Both the position numbers and the translations under genes were made by a program. The notes under the pieces were generated by a model. It was not told where the DNA came from and ran no database searches. It saw nothing but the letters and a program-made list of their open reading frames with translations. From a bacterium (lineage in GTDB: Bacteria; Armatimonadota; Zipacnadia; Zipacnadales; Zipacnadaceae), in contig JAUVZM010000001.1 of the NCBI GenBank assembly GCA_030602615.1, positions 73,720 through 137,719 of the forward strand: a stretch of 64,000 bases of DNA, read 5' to 3'. Each line of letters opens with the position of its first letter. Positions within the stretch are counted from its first letter, which is position 1. Below are positions 4,193-51,201 of the stretch, piece by piece.

Positions 4193-5503
4193 GTGGCATC
4201 ACTGATGGCACCAATCATAGACGTTATTGATGCACGGACTGGCGACAGTTCAGCCCTGCAAGCGCTGCGCCAGCGGTCACTGGCCGACCTGCCTGACCAC
4301 ATCGAGACCGATGTACGGCGCATCGTTGAAGATGTTCGGCGGCGCGGTGACGAGGCGCTGATAGACTATGAGCGTCAGTTTGATTGTTCGAACTTCACTG
4401 CCGAGCACTTGGTAGTTGGCTCCGAAGAGATTGAGGGGGCCTATGCGCAGGTCTCCTCGGCCCAGTTAGGAGCACTGCGACGGGCCCGGGAGAATGTGTA
4501 TGAGTTTCACCTACATGCCCGGCCTCGCTCGTGGCTTGACGAATTCGATGGCATGTGGCTGGGGCAGCGGGTTACCCCGGTAGATTCGGCCGGCATTTAC
4601 GTGCCTGCCAGAAGCGCCCCCCTGCCTTCCACTGTGTATATGTGTGCGATGCCCGCCAAGGTGGCGGAAGTGCCGCAGATCGCTATATGTTCGCCGCCGC
4701 GCAAGGACGGTTCGCTTGATGCCTTGACGCTGGTGGCTGCCGCCGAGTGCGGCGTAGACGAGATATATCGTCTGGGAGGTGCCCAGGCCATCGCTGCTCT
4801 GGCCTTTGGTACGGAGAGCGTCGCGCCAGTCAGCAAGATTGTCGGCCCGGGCAATCCCTGGGTGACGATGGCCAAGAAACACGTCTACGGTATAGTGGGC
4901 GTTGATTCGCTGGCCGGGCCCAGCGAGGTGTTGGTAATCGCTGATGCAACTGCCAAGCCGGCTACGGTTGCGGCTGATCTGGTAGCGCAGGCCGAGCATA
5001 CCGGGGATAATATGGCGGTATTGATCACGCCCAGCCAAGCGCTCGCCGAGCAGGTAACCGCCGAACTGCAACAGCAAGTTGCGGGGGCTGAGCGGGTCAC
5101 CAAGATTCAGGATTCGCTGAGCGAGTTCGGCGCGATTGTACTGGTGCGGGATTTGCACCACGCTGCCCGGCTGGCCAGCGACATCGCCCCCGAGCACTTG
5201 CAACTGTTGGTGGATGATCCTCTGGCGCTGTTGGCCGAGATTGACCACGCCGGGTGTGTGTGTCTCGGAGAGCTGACGCCTGTGCCCCTGGGCGACTATG
5301 CTGCCGGTCCCAGTCATGTCCTGCCGACTGGTGGCACGGCCCGCTTCGCTTCGGGACTGGCGGTGGATGACTTTGTGAAGAAGACGTCGCTAATCTCTGC
5401 AACGCGCCGCGGCTTAGATCGGCTGGCCCCTGATGTAATTGAGTTGGCTGAGGCTGAAGGGTTGGAGGCACACGCTCAGGCGGTGCAGCAGCGCCGTCAC
5501 TAA
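4193..5503 (+). CDS. hisD: Histidinol dehydrogenase
   Basis: 436 aa. HisD-family similarity along the whole length, including the AGPSEVLVIAD segment. Alternative start at ATG 4205. Confidence 0.9.
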   Translation: MASLMAPIIDVIDARTGDSSALQALRQRSLADLPDHIETDVRRIVEDVRRRGDEALIDYERQFDCSNFTAEHLVVGSEEIEGAYAQVSSAQLGALRRARENVYEFHLHARPRSWLDEFDGMWLGQRVTPVDSAGIYVPARSAPLPSTVYMCAMPAKVAEVPQIAICSPPRKDGSLDALTLVAAAECGVDEIYRLGGAQAIAALAFGTESVAPVSKIVGPGNPWVTMAKKHVYGIVGVDSLAGPSEVLVIADATAKPATVAADLVAQAEHTGDNMAVLITPSQALAEQVTAELQQQVAGAERVTKIQDSLSEFGAIVLVRDLHHAARLASDIAPEHLQLLVDDPLALLAEIDHAGCVCLGELTPVPLGDYAAGPSHVLPTGGTARFASGLAVDDFVKKTSLISATRRGLDRLAPDVIELAEAEGLEAHAQAVQQRRH

Positions 5504-46266: not shown

Positions 46267-47140
46267 ATCCCGCCTTGGACGCGGTCTCAGTCAGCTTATT
46301 TCCAGCAATGCCCTGTCGCAAAGCCGTGCAGTGATAGAGGTAACCCCGGATCGGCTTCAGCCCAATCCCTTCCAGCCTCGGCGCGGCTATGATGTTGCGA
46401 CACTTGATGAACTAGCCGAATCAATTCGCCAGCAGGGGATACTCCAGCCGCTATTGGTGCGACCTGCCGGCGACAACTACCAGATCGTCCTTGGTGAGCG
46501 CCGCTGGCGAGCTGCCCAGCAGGCCGGTCTGGAGACTGTCCCATGCATTGTTCAGGAAGTGGAGGACCGGCAGGCTCTGGAGATGGCATTGATCGAGAAT
46601 CTTCATCGCGAAGACCTCAATGCTGTGGAAAGAGCGCGCGCCTATCAGCAGCTAATTGATGACTTCGATTTCACTCACGAAGAGCTGGCTCAGCATATCG
46701 GCAAGAGTCGTTCCGCCATCACTAACACACTCCGACTGCTGCAACTGCCTGAAGAGGTGCTGGCCAGCCTGGCGGAGGGCAATATCAGCGAGGGCCACGG
46801 CCGTGCATTGCTCAGCCTGGAAGACGCCCCGGATTCGCTTCGAGATGTGTGGCGAACTGTCGAGAACGAAGAACTGTCCGTTCGTGCCACCGAGGAACTG
46901 GTGCGGGAGGTGTTGGGACGGGATGAGCCGCCTGCGCAGGCCCGCCGGTCACCCCGGGTCGCGCCACCGCCACCAGATCCTCACCTGATGGCGCTTAGTG
47001 AGCATCTGCAGGAGACCCTAGCCACTGAAGTCAGGCTGCAGCCCAGGAAAGGCGGCGGGGGAACGATCCTTATTCGGTTCAGCGACTCCGAGGAGCTCCA
47101 ACGAATCGTAGAGCACATTGCCCCGGGGGACTATCTTTAA
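46259..47140 (+). CDS. parB: Chromosome partitioning protein ParB / Spo0J
   Basis: N-terminal MSRSRLGRGLSQLI, ParB box GERRWRAA, HTH. Overlaps the parA stop by 8 nt. Confidence 0.9.
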   Translation: MSRSRLGRGLSQLISSNALSQSRAVIEVTPDRLQPNPFQPRRGYDVATLDELAESIRQQGILQPLLVRPAGDNYQIVLGERRWRAAQQAGLETVPCIVQEVEDRQALEMALIENLHREDLNAVERARAYQQLIDDFDFTHEELAQHIGKSRSAITNTLRLLQLPEEVLASLAEGNISEGHGRALLSLEDAPDSLRDVWRTVENEELSVRATEELVREVLGRDEPPAQARRSPRVAPPPPDPHLMALSEHLQETLATEVRLQPRKGGGGTILIRFSDSEELQRIVEHIAPGDYL

Positions 47141-47670
47141 GCTGGCCACCCTCTGAAGGACCCTGGCAAATAACTATTGGCGGCTAGTAATAATCAGCCG
47201 CCCAATGGGCGAGACCGTAGTGCTGCGCGCGGGCTGTGCTTCTGGTCTGTGCAAGAGTCTACATCCAACGGTTTGCGGCGGCAGGGACATTTCGCCGTCG
47301 TGTCGAACATATGTTCTATTCATCCTGGCTTCACAGGTTGCCCAAGTCAACATACCTGGGTAGTTATGCTGCAGACGACTACGCAAGATGCTCGGCGGGT
47401 AAACTCTCGCGTACGACAGAAGAACCCCACTATTCCGTTGTGTTCTCGTAGGGAGGAGAGCTCTGGGGGGTTGCGGACTAGTGAGGGCTGACAGCCTGGC
47501 TGAGTCGTCACGGAGTTGTTTTGATTAGCGGTTGTTTGGTATGGAAGAACGTAAGCACTTGCGCCAACCTGGTACTGCTTCGGGGTGTTGACGAAGCGAG
47601 CACGGAGTGGGGGAGAACATCATGGGTAGAAGCCAGGACGGGCTGCCCAGGCACCGAACAGCCTGACAGG

Positions 47671-47740
47671 TTGACAGGTACTGGCTAATATGCTACGATA
47701 GATACGCCTCCCACGCGGGAGGCTATCTTATTCAGGAGGT
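47671..47740 (+). promoter_or_regulatory. Promoter (TTGACA, 17 nt, TACGAT) plus a stable leader hairpin and RBS upstream of the S5-like gene
   Basis: Hairpin AGATACGCCTCCC-acgc-GGGAGGCTATCT at 47700..47730 lies immediately 5' of the AGGAGG RBS. Confidence 0.4.
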
Positions 47741-47749
47741 TGGATTGTA

Positions 47750-48556
47750 TTGGCCACAGTATCAGAGCGTGAGAAGTTGGAAGCAGAAGAGCTAGAGGAT
47801 CGAGTAATCCGGATTGACCGCACTCGCAAGACCGTAGCGGGCGGGCGGTTATCGAGTGCCCGCGTTGTAGTTGCTGTTGGCGATAATCGGGGGCACATCG
47901 GTCTGGGGATAGGCAAGGCCCGTAATGTTCCGGAGGCGATTTCTAAGGGAATTCGTAGAGCGAAGAAGAACATGATTGACATCCCACTGGATGGATACAC
48001 CATTCCTCATGTAACCCAGGCCAAAGTTGGCGGTGCCGTCATTCTGCTCAGGCCGGCCTCACGGGGTACCGGTATCGTCGCTGGTGGTGCAGTCCGGCAA
48101 CTGATCGAGATCAGCGGTATCCGCGACATACTGACCAAGTCGCTGGGCAGCGGCAATGTGATGAACCGCGCCAAGGCCTGTTTTAAGGCGCTGTCGGAGT
48201 TGCGAAATCCCCACGAAGTTGCCGAACGGCGGGGCATAGCCGTCGAGGAGATGATGGACCGCGAGATTGTCAATCCGTATGATGAAGAGGAAGTTGAGGA
48301 AAAGGAGGAAGCGGCCGAGGCTATAGAGGGCGGACAGGAAGCACCTGCGGAGACAGTCGCGGCTGCTGCCGATGCCCAACCCGAACCGGAGGCCGAAGAG
48401 GCAGAAGAAGTCGGGGCGGCTGAAGCTGAAGAAGAGGTGCTCGCCGAGGGTGGCGAAGAGGCAGAAACTGAGGTCGTGGCCGCGGCCATCGAGGCTTCCA
48501 GCGAACAGGCAGAGCAAGACGCTGAACAGCAACAAGCTGGCGACGAGCAAGAATAG
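47750..48556 (+). CDS. rpsE: Ribosomal protein S5 homologue with long acidic C-terminal extension
   Basis: TTG start. Residues 1-165 align with bacterial S5 (KTVAGGR, VVVAVGD..G.IG.G.GKA, PASRGTGIVAGG). The last ~100 aa are Glu/Ala-rich low complexity. Confidence 0.8.
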   Translation: MATVSEREKLEAEELEDRVIRIDRTRKTVAGGRLSSARVVVAVGDNRGHIGLGIGKARNVPEAISKGIRRAKKNMIDIPLDGYTIPHVTQAKVGGAVILLRPASRGTGIVAGGAVRQLIEISGIRDILTKSLGSGNVMNRAKACFKALSELRNPHEVAERRGIAVEEMMDREIVNPYDEEEVEEKEEAAEAIEGGQEAPAETVAAAADAQPEPEAEEAEEVGAAEAEEEVLAEGGEEAETEVVAAAIEASSEQAEQDAEQQQAGDEQE

Positions 48557-48610
48557 GCTGGCTGGGTCCCGGGCGGTCTGGAGTTGGAGATTGTAGCAAC
48601 TGGAGTGTTG

Positions 48611-48669
48611 AGCCGGCTTGTCACTTGGCAAGCCGGCTTTTGGTAAGCCCGCCTCCTTTTCGGCGGGCT
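48611..48669 (+). terminator. Tandem terminator hairpins after the S5-like gene
   Basis: AGCCGGCTTG-tcacttgg-CAAGCCGGCT followed by TTTTGG, then AGCCCGCC-tccttttc-GGCGGGCT. Confidence 0.65.
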
Positions 48670-49237
48670 ACCTCCCAATCATCCCCCCATTGTCTCCGCC
48701 TCGCCGGCTAGTACGGAGGCCGTCGTTGCTTCTGGCTTACCTAGTGGGTGTCGGATGGTGAGGTATTCCCCTGTGGCAAAGTGGTCTTTGCTGGAGACCG
48801 GCCACATGCGCTGCGCAGTCAGTGTTGATAAGTCAGGGAGTTGCACCTGCCTGTGGAAAGATGAGAAGGTGAGCAGGGGGGCGTGCTGGGCAAAGGAAAC
48901 AGCGAGACGCCCAGTGGGTGTGGCATGTGAAGGAGGGAGGGTGGAACCTTCTCATGACCTGGCTATCCCGCAGGTGCGGGTGATTGGGCGCCTCGCTTGT
49001 TTTGTGCAATAGTATAGACGTTTCCCGCTATGAAAAGGTTCCCTTGCCCTTGATTACTTCGGCTTTTTCAGGGAATTCTGAAGGCTCCGCTGAGCTTGCT
49101 ATTGGCCAATAATAGGCCATCTTTCCACATTTACAGGCGAAATGCACCTGTTATCAACTGACTTTTCCACAATTCTACGTCACTGCCAAGGACTCATCTG
49201 GAGCCCGTCGTTAGTTGTCCAGTTGAAGATGTCCTGC

Positions 49238-50293
49238 CTAAAGTTGGTCATAGGGTAACAGCGGCAGGCTGGAGAATACGTCCATATCCAGCTCAGAAGG
49301 GCCCTGGCGCTGAGCTTGGAAGTATCCGGCCGCGGCGACCATTGCAGCGTTGTCGGTGCATAGATCGAGCGGCGGAAAGGCCACGGGAATTCCCTGAGAT
49401 TGACCGACCTCGAATAGCCTCCGTCGCAGAAGCTGATTGGCGGCGACGCCCCCAGCCATTATCAGTTGCTCGGCCTTGTGCTCCCGCGCGGCGGCAGGTA
49501 GGTTGTGGATGAGCGTCTCCACCACGGCCTGCTGAAAGCTGGCAGCCAGATCCGCAACTTGCTGGGCAGCTTGTGGGGGAGTTTCGCGCACCTGGCGGGC
49601 CAGCGCCGTCTTGAGACCGGCGAAACTGAAGTCATAGCTGTCCTCAATACGAGGCCGCGGCAGGTCCACGGCGTTGGGATCGCCCTGGGCGGCGGCCTGC
49701 TCAATAGCTGGTCCGCCCGGATAGCCTAGCTCCAGCAGGCGGGCGGCCTTGTCGAGAGCTTCTCCGGCGGCGTCATCGCGAGTTTCGCCCAGCGATTGGC
49801 AGTCACCGAACTGTTGCATCAAGATGAGACTGGTATGCCCGCCCGACGCCAGCAGACACACGGTAGGGAAGAGCTGCTGTGCTGGCGGGTGTTGGCCGGG
49901 CGGCGCGATGAAGTTGGACATAACGTGAGCCTTCAGATGATTGACGCCCACCAGAGGGATGCCGCTGGCGGCGGCGTAACCCTTGGCGGCGCTGACTCCG
50001 ACAAGCAGCGAGCCGATCAGGCCGGGGCCCTGGGTGGCGGCCACCAGATCAATTTCAGCCAGTGACACCTGAGCCTGGTGCAGGGCTTTGTGTGTGATCA
50101 GGGTAATGACCTCGGTGTGACGGCGGGAGGCAATCTCCGGCACTACTCCGCCAAAGACAGCGTGGAGATCATCCTGGGTCGCGACGACATTCGAGAGAAT
50201 CTGTCGCCCGCCACGCACCACTGCTGCGCTGGTCTCGTCGCAGGAGGTTTCAATGCCCAGAACCAGAGCGTCAGAGTTGCCCTGCCATCTCAT
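49238..50293 (-). CDS. tsaD: tRNA N6-adenosine threonylcarbamoyltransferase
   Basis: LVLGIETSCDETS N-terminus and the Kae1/TsaD metal-binding H..H region. Confidence 0.9.
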   Translation of the reverse strand: MRWQGNSDALVLGIETSCDETSAAVVRGGRQILSNVVATQDDLHAVFGGVVPEIASRRHTEVITLITHKALHQAQVSLAEIDLVAATQGPGLIGSLLVGVSAAKGYAAASGIPLVGVNHLKAHVMSNFIAPPGQHPPAQQLFPTVCLLASGGHTSLILMQQFGDCQSLGETRDDAAGEALDKAARLLELGYPGGPAIEQAAAQGDPNAVDLPRPRIEDSYDFSFAGLKTALARQVRETPPQAAQQVADLAASFQQAVVETLIHNLPAAAREHKAEQLIMAGGVAANQLLRRRLFEVGQSQGIPVAFPPLDLCTDNAAMVAAAGYFQAQRQGPSELDMDVFSSLPLLPYDQL

Positions 50294-50574: not shown

Positions 50575-51201
50575 ATGAGTATCAGCAAATATCGGCAGCG
50601 TCGGGTGAAGTCTGGCAGATTGTTTGGGGCAGTATTTGCTTGGGTAATGCTGGCGCTGGTAGCATTGCTTACCACCGGCCTCGCTACGGGACGTGAAGAC
50701 AATAACGCGTCGTCTGAGAAGTCGGCGACAGCAGACACTGGCCGGAGGGACGATGTGGATAATAATGACGGAAAACAACTACCAGCGAATCCAGTTCAGA
50801 GAGTGGCTCACAAGGCCCTGAAGGGCGAGTACGGCAAGCTGGAAGACTGGCAGTATAAGGCGTATAAGTATGCTCTGATCCAGGAAGCTAGTGTTAACGG
50901 AGTGGCCTGGGTCACCAGTTACGGCCCCTGGGAAGGCTTTATGTTCGGCGAGGCTTGCGCCTTCGGCTATGGCTGTAGTGACTCGACTGCCGCCGCTAAC
51001 CTGATCCCCTCACATTATTATGTCCTCATAGAGCTGCCCGAAGGCTGGGAAGCGCGGCGCATTGAAGACTGTGGCGCCAAGCGCAATGACTTTGTGGCCC
51101 GCCGCAAGGGCGCGCAGGTGTGGATTGACCGCTGGGTGCGAACCAATGAGGGCAGCTACCTCACCCGCTACGCCTCCATCCGCGCCTTCAAGACCTGGTA
51201 G
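50575..51201 (+). CDS. Hypothetical secreted / membrane-anchored protein (possible 3D / DPBB-like C-terminus)
   Basis: 208 aa, N-terminal TM. Cys- and Gly-rich C-terminal domain. The 3D/DPBB domain assignment is speculative. Confidence 0.35.
   Translation: MSISKYRQRRVKSGRLFGAVFAWVMLALVALLTTGLATGREDNNASSEKSATADTGRRDDVDNNDGKQLPANPVQRVAHKALKGEYGKLEDWQYKAYKYALIQEASVNGVAWVTSYGPWEGFMFGEACAFGYGCSDSTAAANLIPSHYYVLIELPEGWEARRIEDCGAKRNDFVARRKGAQVWIDRWVRTNEGSYLTRYASIRAFKTW

What the first reader, a model, noticed from the sequence alone, without database searches (positions are those of the whole stretch)
47671..48669. Stand-alone ribosomal protein S5 homologue with ~100-aa polyacidic tail, its own promoter, leader hairpin and terminator
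S5 (rpsE) is normally embedded in the spc ribosomal-protein operon between L18 and L30/L15. Here a clear S5 homologue sits alone between parB and tsaD as a monocistronic unit. It has a TTGACA-N17-TACGAT promoter, a 12-bp leader hairpin abutting the RBS, and a strong terminator.

It also carries a C-terminal extension of about 100 residues made almost only of E, A, Q, V and G. Either rpsE has been relocated in this lineage, with the hairpin as a possible autoregulatory site, or this is a second, divergent paralogue. If it is a paralogue, it could be an alternative ribosome component or a moonlighting protein.
Basis: partly seen in the sequence, partly recalled or inferred. Interest (0 to 1): 0.55.

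Follow-up and report, generated by a model that had tools for sequence, protein, structure and literature searches.

The report
Relocated, acid-tailed ribosomal protein S5 gene
This is the ordinary ribosomal protein S5 gene of an Armatimonadota bacterium; in this lineage it sits outside the usual ribosomal-protein operon as a self-contained unit, with a conserved promoter and 5' RNA hairpin and a long acidic tail, and it is almost certainly not an extra copy.

Summary
Window 47750-48556 (+) encodes a 268-aa uS5. It has both S5 domains, passes the rpsE equivalog cut-off (178 vs 164 bits), and aligns without gaps to B. subtilis uS5. It stands alone between parB and tsaD.

- **Signals.** There is a TTGACA-17-TACGAT promoter, a hairpin at the predicted 5' end of the mRNA, an AGGAGG ribosome-binding site with a TTG start, and a 12-bp terminator.
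- **Tail.** The 91-aa C-terminal tail has a net charge of about -35.
- **Lineage.** Relatives are Armatimonadota. All 25 loci of this S5 type are stand-alone, and all 25 aligned homologues carry acidic tails of 29-106 aa.
- **Operon.** A taxon-blind DNA pattern for "L18 directly followed by L30" found 11 metagenome contigs. Further lookups found four named Armatimonadota assemblies with otherwise intact S10-spc-alpha clusters that lack rpsE. Other Armatimonadota keep S5 in the operon.

It is the single, relocated rpsE, not a paralogue. The window's own genome could not be checked.

The more interesting residue is the leader. The promoter plus hairpin is conserved in 17 of 20 distinct S5 loci, and three of its seven base pairs show compensatory changes. 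I read it as a 5'-terminal mRNA stabiliser. S5 autoregulation is not excluded.

The parts
47671..47699 (+). Sigma-70-type promoter: -35 TTGACA (47671-47676), 17-nt spacer, extended -10 TGcTACGAT (47691-47699).
   Evidence: 10 of 12 consensus positions, with TG before the -10. A TTGAC[ACT]-N17/18-TAnnnT promoter sits at the same place in 16 distinct S5 loci and in 17 of 20 overall.
47700..47728 (+). Leader stem-loop. The core 7-bp stem is GCCTCCC (47706-47712) paired with GGGAGGC (47717-47723), with loop ACGC. An outer 5 bp, AGATA/TATCT, has a bulged C at 47705. The predicted transcription start is near 47706, so the core stem would lie at the very 5' end of the mRNA.
   Evidence: -18.5 kcal/mol, z = -4.3; unique in the window; conserved position; 97.6% of cells paired, 3 of 7 pairs with compensatory changes, and G.U wobbles.
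47734..47739 (+). Shine-Dalgarno sequence AGGAGG, 10 nt upstream of the TTG start codon.
   Evidence: Read directly from the sequence. Aligned SD-like runs are present in relatives.
47750..48280 (+). rpsE core, aa 1-177: the N-terminal dsRBD-like S5 domain, the S5 C-terminal domain, and the canonical C-terminal helix region ending ...REIVNPY.
   Evidence: Pfam, TIGR01021; ungapped alignment of aa 14-169 to B. subtilis uS5 residues 8-163, E 3e-44; 80 invariant columns in the 11-sequence core alignment.
48281..48556 (+). Polyacidic, low-complexity C-terminal tail (aa 178-268, net charge about -35) plus the TAG stop codon (48554-48556).
   Evidence: composition and charge. AlphaFold2 pLDDT below 50 for aa 192-253; tails of 29-106 aa and 25-62% D+E in all 25 aligned homologues, with no conserved sequence; no real tandem repeat in the DNA.
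48611..48642 (+). Intrinsic terminator: a 12-bp stem (48611-48622 paired with 48627-48638), loop ACUU, then a U-run.
   Evidence: the centroid structure contains it; region z = -3.8.
48646..48669 (+). Second GC-rich hairpin (AGCCCGCC / GGCGGGCT, 8-nt loop) with no U-run. It could back up the terminator or protect the 3' end.

Best explanation
This is the functional, and almost certainly only, rpsE (uS5) gene of an Armatimonadota bacterium.

**How it came to be here.** In one sub-clade of that phylum (MAGs labelled Armatimonadia, Zipacnadia, 'WS1' and Armatimonadota), rpsE no longer lies between rplR (L18) and rpmD (L30). The rest of the S10-spc-alpha cluster is intact. The gene now lives elsewhere as a monocistronic unit.

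**How it works.**
- A near-consensus sigma-70 promoter with an extended -10 drives transcription.
- The transcript begins with a GC-rich stem-loop within a few nucleotides of its 5' end.
- A strong Shine-Dalgarno sequence and a non-ATG start follow, and a strong intrinsic terminator ends the transcript.

**Role of the hairpin (inferred).** The most likely role is as a 5'-terminal stem-loop that protects the mRNA from 5'-end-dependent decay. That would give a detached ribosomal-protein gene the high, stable expression it formerly had as part of a large operon. It may also serve as an operator for S5 feedback.

**Role of the tail (inferred).** The tail is a disordered polyanion appended to a normal, basic uS5 core. 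A shorter version exists in Armatimonadota that keep S5 in the operon, so the tail predates the relocation. It would project from the solvent side of the 30S body. Plausible roles are shielding the basic RNA-binding surface of free S5 or tuning electrostatics near the mRNA entry side.

**Shown versus inferred.** Shown: the identity of the protein, the anatomy of the unit, its conservation, and rpsE-less operons in relatives. Inferred: single-copy status in this particular genome, the transcription start, and the roles of the hairpin and tail.
For: **Identity.** Both S5 domains are present. TIGR01021 scores above its cut-off. The core aligns end to end without gaps to solved uS5 structures. The closest named homologues are '30S ribosomal protein S5 [Armatimonadota/Armatimonadia bacterium]'.

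**Stand-alone arrangement across the clade.** All 25 loci of this S5 type have no S10/spc/alpha-cluster gene within 10 kb, across at least five different neighbourhoods. By contrast, 60 of the 63 loci from other phyla retrieved in the same scan show L18 upstream of S5 with L30/L15 downstream; the other three are contigs cut short beside S5. L007 keeps the same gidB-parA-parB-S5-tsaD synteny as the window.

**Operons without S5.**
- A DNA pattern requiring the L18 C-terminus, a stop, at most about 80 nt, then the L30 N-terminal motif found 11 metagenome contigs. All carry L18 directly followed by L30, with L6, L15 or SecY where the contig reaches them, and no S5.
- The SecY proteins of two of these contigs have named homologues that are almost all Armatimonadota.
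- Four NCBI assemblies show an otherwise complete cluster running from L2 or L22 to S9, with L18 next to L30: GCA_964528605.1, GCA_053939465.1, GCA_046483205.1 and the assembly carrying P0234.
- There is no S5-like sequence anywhere in 123 kb of these loci.

**Possible same-genome link.** S5 MFO7945514.1 and SecY MFO7948163.1 (from an rpsE-less cluster) have accession numbers 2,649 apart.

**Tail.** It is present in all 25 aligned homologues. Operon-embedded Armatimonadota S5 proteins of 199-204 aa also end in A/E-rich tails.

**Leader.**
- The promoter and hairpin sit at the same position in 17 of 20 distinct S5 loci.
- In 441 kb of Armatimonadota DNA only 37 sites match the strict promoter. 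Of these, 19 are followed by a hairpin, and 17 of those 19 are the S5 genes.
- Covariation: UA/CG at one pair (10:8) and CG/GC at two pairs, plus G.U wobbles that pair only on the sense strand. The covariation score is 0.41 against 0.19 in shuffles, reached by 0 of 500.

**Context.** Armatimonadetes genomes are described as 'disorganized', with operon genes dispersed (PMC4959169). In this window hisD sits alone after dnaE.
Against: **Single copy is not shown for this genome.** The window's own genome, and the nearest assembly JAUWYY01, could not be searched for a second rpsE or for their spc operon. The same-assembly link rests only on accession proximity.

**Orthology by descent is not shown.** Stand-alone S5 proteins are no closer to operon-embedded Armatimonadota S5 (mean 48% identity) than to S5 of other phyla (52%). 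Simple translocation by vertical descent is therefore not demonstrated. Faster evolution or replacement by a foreign copy would look the same.

**The gene is somewhat divergent.** The TIGR01021 score is only 14 bits above the cut-off.

**Hairpin caveats.**
- The transcription start is predicted, not measured.
- For many relatives the hairpin's z-score against shuffles is weak (-0.1 to -2.2), because these G/C-run sequences fold well even when shuffled.
- I trimmed the covariation alignment to the predicted hairpins myself, which favours pairing.
- Three S5 loci (L012, L021, L024) lack the promoter and hairpin.
Confidence: 0.85

Rival explanations
1. Autoregulatory operator. Free S5, whose N-terminal domain has a dsRBD-like fold (from general knowledge), binds the 5' hairpin and represses its own translation or destabilises its mRNA. 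This would replace the S8-mediated control it lost on leaving the spc operon. It concerns only the role of the hairpin and is compatible with the single-copy reading.
For: - The hairpin is essentially specific to S5 genes in the sampled Armatimonadota DNA: 17 of the 19 promoter-plus-hairpin sites.
- It is maintained by compensatory changes.
- It lies 5-25 nt upstream of the Shine-Dalgarno sequence.
- Starts are often non-ATG: TTG or GTG in 11 of the 15 leaders read through to their start codon.
- In one relative (L006) the minimum-energy fold pairs the CCUCC arm with the true SD.
- Stand-alone ribosomal-protein genes are commonly autoregulated through their leaders (general knowledge).
Against: - S5 is not a known translational repressor in any organism.
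- No Rfam family matches, even at E = 1.
- No similarity to a 16S rRNA S5 site could be tested, because there is no rRNA in the window.
- The SD-like and anti-SD-like sequence of the stem is lost in the CCCCCGG/CCGGGGG class. Any switch based on the SD is therefore not general.
- A plain GC hairpin offers little specificity.
Confidence: 0.2
2. Second, divergent S5 paralogue that coexists with a canonical operon copy, acting as an alternative ribosome component or a moonlighting protein.
For: - The score is only just above the equivalog cut-off.
- The tail is unusual.
- The location is outside the operon.
- The clade is no closer to operon-embedded Armatimonadota S5 than to outgroups.
- The window's own spc operon was not seen.
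Against: - rpsE-less spc operons exist in Armatimonadota, and operon-embedded and stand-alone S5 were never seen together.
- The genome scan returned one locus per genome. Its patterns were clade-specific, so this is weak evidence.
- The core is full length, collinear with solved uS5, and highly constrained.
- NCBI annotates these proteins simply as S5.
Confidence: 0.05
3. Xenologous displacement rather than translocation. A foreign or strongly diverged rpsE was acquired at a new site, and the operon copy was then deleted cleanly. The outcome is the same (one functional S5), but the history differs.
For: - Stand-alone S5 proteins are 48% identical to operon-embedded Armatimonadota S5 and 52% identical to S5 of other phyla.
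- They form a single clade in a neighbour-joining tree.
- The L18-L30 junction in rpsE-less operons is a clean 11-65 nt spacer with no remnant.
Against: - No donor lineage stands out; the best outgroup identity is 61%.
- A neighbour-joining tree of 166 residues cannot resolve deep branches.
- The name 'Armatimonadota' covers very deep lineages. SecY is only 54-56% identical between the two groups.
- The A/E-rich tail is shared with operon-embedded Armatimonadota S5, which favours common descent.
Confidence: 0.12
4. Leader attenuator. The hairpin plus the following U-rich tract (UAUCUUAUU) acts as a premature intrinsic terminator that is regulated in some way.
For: The terminator scan flags 47706-47723 plus TATCTTATTC.
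Against: - The U-rich tract is not conserved: L005 has CCAUCACAUUU, L006 has GAGCUUACUC, L015 has AUGAAUAAC.
- The hairpin would form within about 25 nt of the start.
- No alternative anti-terminator structure is evident.
Confidence: 0.05

Closest known systems
Bacterial ribosomal protein uS5 (rpsE; TIGR01021, PF00333 + PF03719), for example B. subtilis uS5 in PDB 3j9w and 6htq
   Same: It has the same two-domain core. It aligns without gaps over aa 14-169, passes the equivalog cut-off, and keeps the KTV-GGR loop region and the C-terminal RG..VEE motif.
   Different: The gene is not between rplR and rpmD. It is monocistronic, with its own promoter, leader hairpin and terminator. The protein carries a 91-aa polyacidic tail that turns a basic protein (core pI 10.1) into an acidic one (pI 4.6).
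Lineage-specific uS5 extensions in Actinobacteria (Cutibacterium acnes and Mycobacterium uS5; PMC10085706)
   Same: A conserved uS5 core with clade-specific terminal extensions. These lie near the solvent side and the mRNA-entry region and have been proposed to modulate initiation.
   Different: The actinobacterial extensions include an N-terminal extension, only partly visible in the structures, and a short helical C-terminal extension, and the gene stays in the spc operon (general knowledge). Here the extension is long, purely acidic, predicted to be disordered and hypervariable.
Ribosomal-protein leader cis-regulators of stand-alone r-protein genes (for example the S15, S20, L20 and S4 leaders; Rfam 'r-protein leader' families)
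   Same: A conserved structured element in the 5' UTR of a detached ribosomal-protein gene, maintained by compensatory substitutions.
   Different: No Rfam match. The element is a single simple hairpin. S5 is not a known repressor. No rRNA mimicry or protein binding has been shown.
5'-terminal stabilising stem-loops, such as the E. coli ompA 5' UTR hairpin and Bacillus 5' stabilisers (from general knowledge, not checked in a paper here)
   Same: A stable hairpin that begins within about 0-5 nt of the predicted mRNA 5' end, upstream of and separate from the ribosome-binding site.
   Different: The transcription start and any effect on half-life are unmeasured. The element is tied to one orthologous gene across a clade rather than being a generic feature. 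Other promoter-like sites in the window lack it.
The conserved S10-spc-alpha gene order (L18-S5-L30-L15-SecY)
   Same: In S5-relocated Armatimonadota the rest of the cluster keeps the canonical order, running from L2 or L22 to S9.
   Different: rpsE alone is missing, and L18 abuts L30. An EF-G-like gene is also inserted in the cluster.

Membership tests
Bacterial uS5 / rpsE (TIGR01021 equivalog) | N-terminal S5 (dsRBD-like) domain, PF00333 | tested here: met
   aa 15-79, full profile 1-65, E 1.2e-22.
Bacterial uS5 / rpsE (TIGR01021 equivalog) | C-terminal S5 domain, PF03719 | tested here: met
   aa 92-161, profile 2-71 of 71, E 8e-26.
Bacterial uS5 / rpsE (TIGR01021 equivalog) | Whole-protein score above the curated equivalog cut-off | tested here: met
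   178 bits against 164.05. The margin is small.
Bacterial uS5 / rpsE (TIGR01021 equivalog) | Collinear, full-length similarity to uS5 proteins seen in solved ribosomes | tested here: met
   Ungapped alignment of aa 14-169 to B. subtilis uS5 residues 8-163, E 3e-44. 167 PDB uS5 sequences match.
Bacterial uS5 / rpsE (TIGR01021 equivalog) | Gene lies between rplR (L18) and rpmD/rplO in the spc operon. This is the typical context, not a defining feature of the protein. | tested here: not met
   The gene lies between parB and tsaD. No spc gene is in the window or within 10 kb in any of the 25 related loci.
Bacterial uS5 / rpsE (TIGR01021 equivalog) | It is the only S5 gene of the genome | tested here: inconclusive
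   Relatives have spc operons without rpsE, and one S5/SecY pair has near-adjacent accession numbers. The window's own genome was not available.
Bacterial uS5 / rpsE (TIGR01021 equivalog) | Physically part of the 30S subunit | not testable with these tools
   Needs ribosome proteomics or cryo-EM.
Alternative ribosomal-protein paralogues (duplicated r-protein genes used under special conditions) | Coexists with a canonical copy in the same genome | tested here: not met
   Stand-alone S5 and operon-embedded S5 were never seen together. The lineages split into operon-with-S5 (L100, L101, L107) and operon-without-S5 (L091, L102-L106, L111, L112). This was tested only in relatives.
Ribosomal-protein leader (autoregulatory cis-element) | Conserved RNA structure in the 5' UTR, supported by covariation | tested here: met
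   Present in 17 of 20 distinct loci. 97.6% of cells are paired and 3 of 7 pairs show changes on both sides. The score is 0.41 against 0.19 in shuffles, reached by 0 of 500. Caveat: I trimmed the alignment to the predicted hairpins.
Ribosomal-protein leader (autoregulatory cis-element) | Match to a described Rfam leader family | tested here: not met
   No hit at gathering threshold or at E <= 1.
Ribosomal-protein leader (autoregulatory cis-element) | Mimics the protein's rRNA site, is bound by the protein, and gives feedback repression | not testable with these tools
Binding and regulation need experiments.
5'-terminal mRNA-stabilising stem-loop | Stem begins within a few unpaired nucleotides of the transcript's 5' end | tested here: inconclusive
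   The stem base lies 3-12 nt after the -10 hexamer in 18 loci, which means 0-5 nt from a predicted start. The start itself was not mapped.
5'-terminal mRNA-stabilising stem-loop | Lengthens mRNA half-life | not testable with these tools
   Needs decay measurements with stem-disrupting and compensatory mutants.

The most novel reading that the evidence does not exclude
The conserved 5' hairpin is a previously undescribed S5-responsive leader. Free uS5 would bind it through its dsRBD-like N-terminal domain and throttle its own synthesis. This control would have arisen when rpsE escaped S8-mediated control of the spc operon. The polyacidic tail would act as an intramolecular RNA mimic that sets the binding threshold or chaperones unassembled S5. 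That would make uS5 a new autoregulatory ribosomal protein, and a natural experiment in how stoichiometric control is rebuilt after a gene leaves the spc operon.
Probability: 0.15. Interest if true: 0.6.

Novelty: new variant of a known kind. Interest (0 to 1): 0.35.

Why it matters
The S10-spc-alpha cluster has one of the most conserved gene orders in prokaryotes, and S5 is normally made stoichiometrically as part of it. Here one internal gene is missing from an otherwise untouched cluster in a sub-clade of Armatimonadota. It has acquired its own conserved expression signals elsewhere.

- **Gene-order marker.** The arrangement is a clean synapomorphy for that sub-clade.
- **Annotation.** It warns against synteny-based annotation and binning checks that expect rpsE next to rplR.
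- **Experimental handle.** It offers a tractable case for asking how a ribosomal protein keeps its dosage after losing operon coupling.
- **Unstudied features.** The tail and the leader hairpin are cheap to test experimentally. I found no description of either in the literature searched.

It does not point to a specialised ribosome or a new protein function.

Tried and rejected
1. **Fimbriimonas genome paper.** I looked in its supplement (PMC4072686) for Armatimonadetes ribosomal-protein sequences or locus-tag order. The stored table is truncated before the relevant rows. The Chthonomonas ISME J paper is not held.
2. **MAFFT plus RNAalifold on whole leaders.** Variable loop lengths put the stems out of register, giving a meaningless 3-pair consensus. 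I replaced this with per-sequence folds and an alignment of the trimmed hairpins.
3. **Rfam.** There are no hits at gathering threshold on the whole window or at E <= 1 on 47100-49300.
4. **First junction pattern.** I re-wrote it with a DTG start codon between the gaps.
5. **Same-assembly proof.** None of the SecY contigs I looked up belonged to an assembly for which I also had the S5 locus. Only the accession-number proximity MFO7945514/MFO7948163 was obtained. All look-up caps are now used.
6. **SD/anti-SD switch.** I considered the CCUCCC arm pairing alternately with the real SD. I rejected it as a general mechanism because half the clade has CCCCCGG/CCGGGGG stems.
7. **Tail from repeat expansion.** Only one 2.2-copy 9-mer was found.
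8. **Aldo-keto reductase remnant.** L007 has this gene between S5 and tsaD. No remnant is present in the window.
9. **Minus-strand ORF 48007-48678 (223 aa).** It overlaps the tail and has no Pfam hit. It is a by-product of the GC-rich low-complexity sequence.
Full report
**1. What is in the sequence**

The ORF at window 47750-48556 (+) encodes 268 aa from a TTG start. An AGGAGG ribosome-binding site lies at 47734-47739. Pfam finds the S5 N-terminal domain at aa 15-79 and the S5 C-terminal domain at aa 92-161. NCBIfam TIGR01021 (rpsE_bact, an equivalog model) scores 178 bits against a cut-off of 164. Against solved structures, aa 14-169 align without a gap to residues 8-163 of B. subtilis uS5 (E 3e-44), and 167 PDB uS5 sequences match.

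The flanking genes are rsmG/gidB, parA and parB upstream and tsaD convergent downstream. The larger ORFs of the window were scanned against Pfam. They include dnaE, a lone hisD, an ATP-synthase operon, aromatic amino-acid genes, dinB and riboflavin genes. No other gene of the S10/spc/alpha cluster is present.

**2.

- **Promoter.** TTGACA (47671), 17 nt, TACGAT (47699), preceded by TG. It matches 10 of 12 consensus positions. Three promoter-like sites were found in the 2.2-kb region against 0.7 expected.
- **Hairpin.** It spans 47700-47728. The core is GCCUCCC-ACGC-GGGAGGC and the outer stem is AGAUA/UAUCU with one bulged C. Free energy is -18.5 kcal/mol, z = -4.3, and 0 of 200 shuffles fold as well. 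The core motif is unique in 64 kb, against 0.11 expected.
- **Terminator.** A 12-bp stem at 48611-48638 is followed by UUUU, and a second hairpin lies at 48646-48669. The region's z-score is -3.8.
- **Tail.** Residues 178-268 contain 32 E, 24 A, 8 Q, 6 V, 6 G, 4 D, 1 K and no R. The net charge is about -35, on a core with pI 10.1 and a charge near +9. AlphaFold2 gives pLDDT below 50 for residues 192-253. The DNA is not a tandem repeat.

One refinement applies. With a -10 hexamer ending at 47699, transcription should start near 47706. The outer 5 bp of the '12-bp' hairpin are then probably not in the RNA, and the 7-bp GC core would sit at the very 5' end of the transcript.

**3. Lineage and conservation**

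The closest proteins are 66-97% identical. Wherever a source names them, they are '30S ribosomal protein S5' of Armatimonadota or Armatimonadia MAGs, with lengths of 193-289 aa.

In an alignment of 25 homologues, the 166-aa core is colinear in all but one sequence, which carries a 20-residue duplication. In an 11-sequence core alignment 80 columns are invariant. Every sequence continues into an acidic tail that cannot be aligned, 29-106 aa long and 25-62% D+E. The acidic tail is therefore the norm in the clade.

**4. Genomic context in relatives**

Look-ups of five homologues, plus a scan of one genome per GTDB species with a clade alignment, gave 25 loci carrying this S5 type, 21 of them distinct. 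In tblastn searches with a full set of S10/spc/alpha proteins, the only hit in any of them is S5 itself.

The neighbourhoods differ between loci:
- after ilvD/ilvB in L002;
- after a MazG-like gene in L006;
- near an inverted gidB-parA-parB in L005;
- the same gidB-parA-parB-S5-tsaD order as the window in L007.

So the gene moves as a single unit. In the same scan, 60 of the 63 loci from other phyla (Chloroflexota, Bacillota and others) show L18 upstream of S5 with L30/L15 downstream. The other three are contigs cut short beside S5.

**5. Is there another rpsE in the operon?**

I had no Armatimonadota L18 sequence to use as a query. I therefore wrote a taxon-blind degenerate DNA pattern: the L18 C-terminal motif (YHGR[VI]...[AS]R..GL.F, then a stop), 1-31 nt, a start codon, 18-48 nt, then the L30 motif (S.IG......[RK].T...LG[LF]). 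A match requires that no S5 gene lie between L18 and L30.

Across 241 million metagenome records it matched 11 contigs. All have L18 directly followed by L30, and where the contig reaches them they also carry L6, L15 and SecY, with no S5. In L091, L18 ends at 2285 and L30 starts at 2301.

SecY from L091 and from L098 retrieves homologues whose named members are Armatimonadota or Armatimonadetes, with a single exception. Context look-ups then showed two kinds of Armatimonadota.

- **Group A** keeps L18-S5-L30-L15-SecY: L100, L101 (GCA_023511795.1) and L107-109 (GCA_035686805.1).
- **Group B** has an otherwise complete cluster, running from L2 or L22 to S9, in which L18 is followed directly by L30. 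This group comprises L102/L103 (GCA_964528605.1), L104, L105/L106 (GCA_053939465.1), L111 (SecY P0234) and L112 (GCA_046483205.1).

No S5-like sequence exists anywhere in 123 kb of group-B and pattern-hit loci.

I could not place a stand-alone S5 and an rpsE-less operon on the same assembly by direct look-up. The nearest evidence is an accession pair. The tailed S5 MFO7945514.1 and the SecY of the rpsE-less cluster L112, MFO7948163.1, are 2,649 accession numbers apart, which is what one expects within a single MAG submission. The window's own genome could not be examined.

By inference it is met for this genome too. I put the paralogue reading at about 5%.

**6. History**

The 21 distinct stand-alone S5 proteins form one clade in a neighbour-joining tree. 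Their mean identity is 72% to each other, 48% to group-A S5 and 52% to S5 of other phyla. Vertical descent with acceleration and replacement by a foreign copy therefore cannot be told apart here.

Group-A S5 proteins (199-204 aa) already end in short A/E-rich tails. The tail therefore predates the relocation and argues for common descent.

The literature describes the two Armatimonadetes isolate genomes discussed there, Chthonomonas calidirosea and Fimbriimonas ginsengisoli, as 'disorganized', with operon genes dispersed (PMC4959169). The lone hisD in this window fits that picture. What is unusual is that here the rest of the ribosomal-protein supercluster is intact and only rpsE has left.

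**7. The leader**

In 16 distinct loci a TTGAC[ACT]-17/18-TAnnnT promoter is followed 3-12 nt later by a GC-rich hairpin, then 10-25 nt, then the SD and the start codon.

Across 441 kb of Armatimonadota DNA only 37 sites fit the strict promoter. Of these, 19 have such a hairpin, and 17 of those 19 are the S5 genes. Within the window, the S5 leader has the most stable post-promoter hairpin of 25 promoter-like sites.

The stems fall into sequence classes: GCCUCCC/GGGAGGC, GCCCCCGG/CCGGGGGC, GCCCGC/GCGGGC and others. On an alignment of the hairpins:
- 97.6% of cells are paired;
- three of the seven pairs show changes on both sides (UA/CG 10:8, CG/GC 16:2, CG/GC 10:6);
- the covariation score is 0.41 against 0.19 in shuffles, reached by 0 of 500;
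- sliding the partner columns drops pairing to 50-67%.

G.U wobbles that would be C.A mismatches on the other strand point to an RNA structure on the sense strand rather than a DNA palindrome.

Three caveats apply. I trimmed the sequences to the predicted hairpins. The sequences are related. Single-sequence z-scores are weak for many relatives. Three loci (L012, L021, L024) lack the design and share a different leader. No Rfam family matches.

**8. Mechanism**

*Shown.* A self-contained unit made of promoter, hairpin, SD, CDS and terminator, conserved across a clade.

*Inferred.* The hairpin lies at the 5' terminus of the mRNA. The best-supported reading is a 5'-terminal stabilising stem-loop of the ompA type (from general knowledge). 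It would give high, steady expression to a gene that lost operon coupling. I put this at about 50% for the hairpin's role.

The main rival is an operator for S5 feedback, at about 20%. The evidence that bears on it is as follows:
- it fits the element's specificity for S5 genes, its nearness to the SD and the frequent non-ATG starts;
- it lacks any precedent for S5 as a repressor;
- an SD/anti-SD switch cannot be general, because one stem class lacks those sequences.

An attenuator is unlikely, because the U-tract is not conserved.

The tail is predicted to be a disordered polyanion. Its function is unknown. Shielding of the basic surface of free S5, or electrostatic effects on the solvent or mRNA-entry side of the 30S subunit, are guesses. 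Lineage-specific uS5 extensions near the mRNA entrance are known in Actinobacteria (PMC10085706), but those are not acidic tails of this kind.

**9. Verdict**

This is an ordinary, essential ribosomal protein gene in an unusual place.

As far as my searches show, the clade-wide loss of rpsE from an otherwise intact spc operon, its dedicated covarying 5' hairpin and the polyacidic tail are undescribed. They are of moderate interest to people who study ribosomal-protein operon evolution and regulation.

Noticed in passing
L100 3028-5109; L101 3021-5105; L102 2395-4473; L105 2232-4316; L112 3081-5165: A full-length EF-G-like gene (about 692-694 aa) sits inside the S10-spc cluster of Armatimonadota. 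It lies between L5 and S14 in lineages that keep S5 in the operon, and between S17 and L14 in lineages that lost S5 from it. That is an unusual place for a fusA-like gene, and its position differs between the two groups.
   Followed up: no
window 47230-47660 (parB-S5 spacer), compared with L007 9499-9956: The 610-nt spacer between parB and the S5 promoter is 79% identical to that of a relative whose S5 core is 95% identical. Mismatches show no codon periodicity (16/18/18 in a 202-nt block), and no frame stays open with conserved protein sequence. No Rfam hit was found. It could be a conserved non-coding RNA or a regulatory region.
   Followed up: partly
window 4193-5503 (+): hisD (histidinol dehydrogenase) stands alone directly after dnaE, with no other his genes nearby. 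This fits the 'disorganized genome' described for Armatimonadetes.
   Followed up: no
L012, L021 and L024, upstream of S5: Three S5 loci lack the consensus promoter and hairpin. They share a different leader ending in ...GCAAACGAGAGGGA(N7-10)ATG. A sub-clade may have replaced the expression signals or may co-transcribe S5 with an upstream gene.
   Followed up: no
P0010 (S5 homologue), core residues about 137-176: One homologue carries an exact internal 20-residue duplication (LSELRNPYEVAERRGITVEE, twice) at the end of the S5 core. It could be a real duplication or an assembly artefact.
   Followed up: no
L013, L025; P0061, P0080, P0091: Some stand-alone S5 proteins also have N-terminal extensions of about 20-40 aa. 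In L013 the promoter and hairpin lie about 200 nt upstream of the core. Start-codon calls may be wrong, or this may be a second lineage-specific extension.
   Followed up: no
window 48680-49237, compared with L007 10863-11855: The close relative L007 has an aldo-keto reductase gene between S5 and tsaD. The window has a 680-nt gene-free gap with no remnant of it. From about 48889 onward the window aligns to L007 at 86% identity.
   Followed up: partly
window 50575-51201 (+); L007 13690-14316: A 208-aa ORF next to tsaD has no Pfam match but is conserved in position in L007 and L008. It is a clade-specific protein of unknown function.
   Followed up: no
SecY hits: SecY length tracks the two groups. 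It is about 417-430 aa in lineages with S5 in the operon (L100, L101, L107) and about 439-450 aa in rpsE-less lineages (L091, L102, L105, L111, L112). This suggests the relocation marks a deep split within the phylum.
   Followed up: partly
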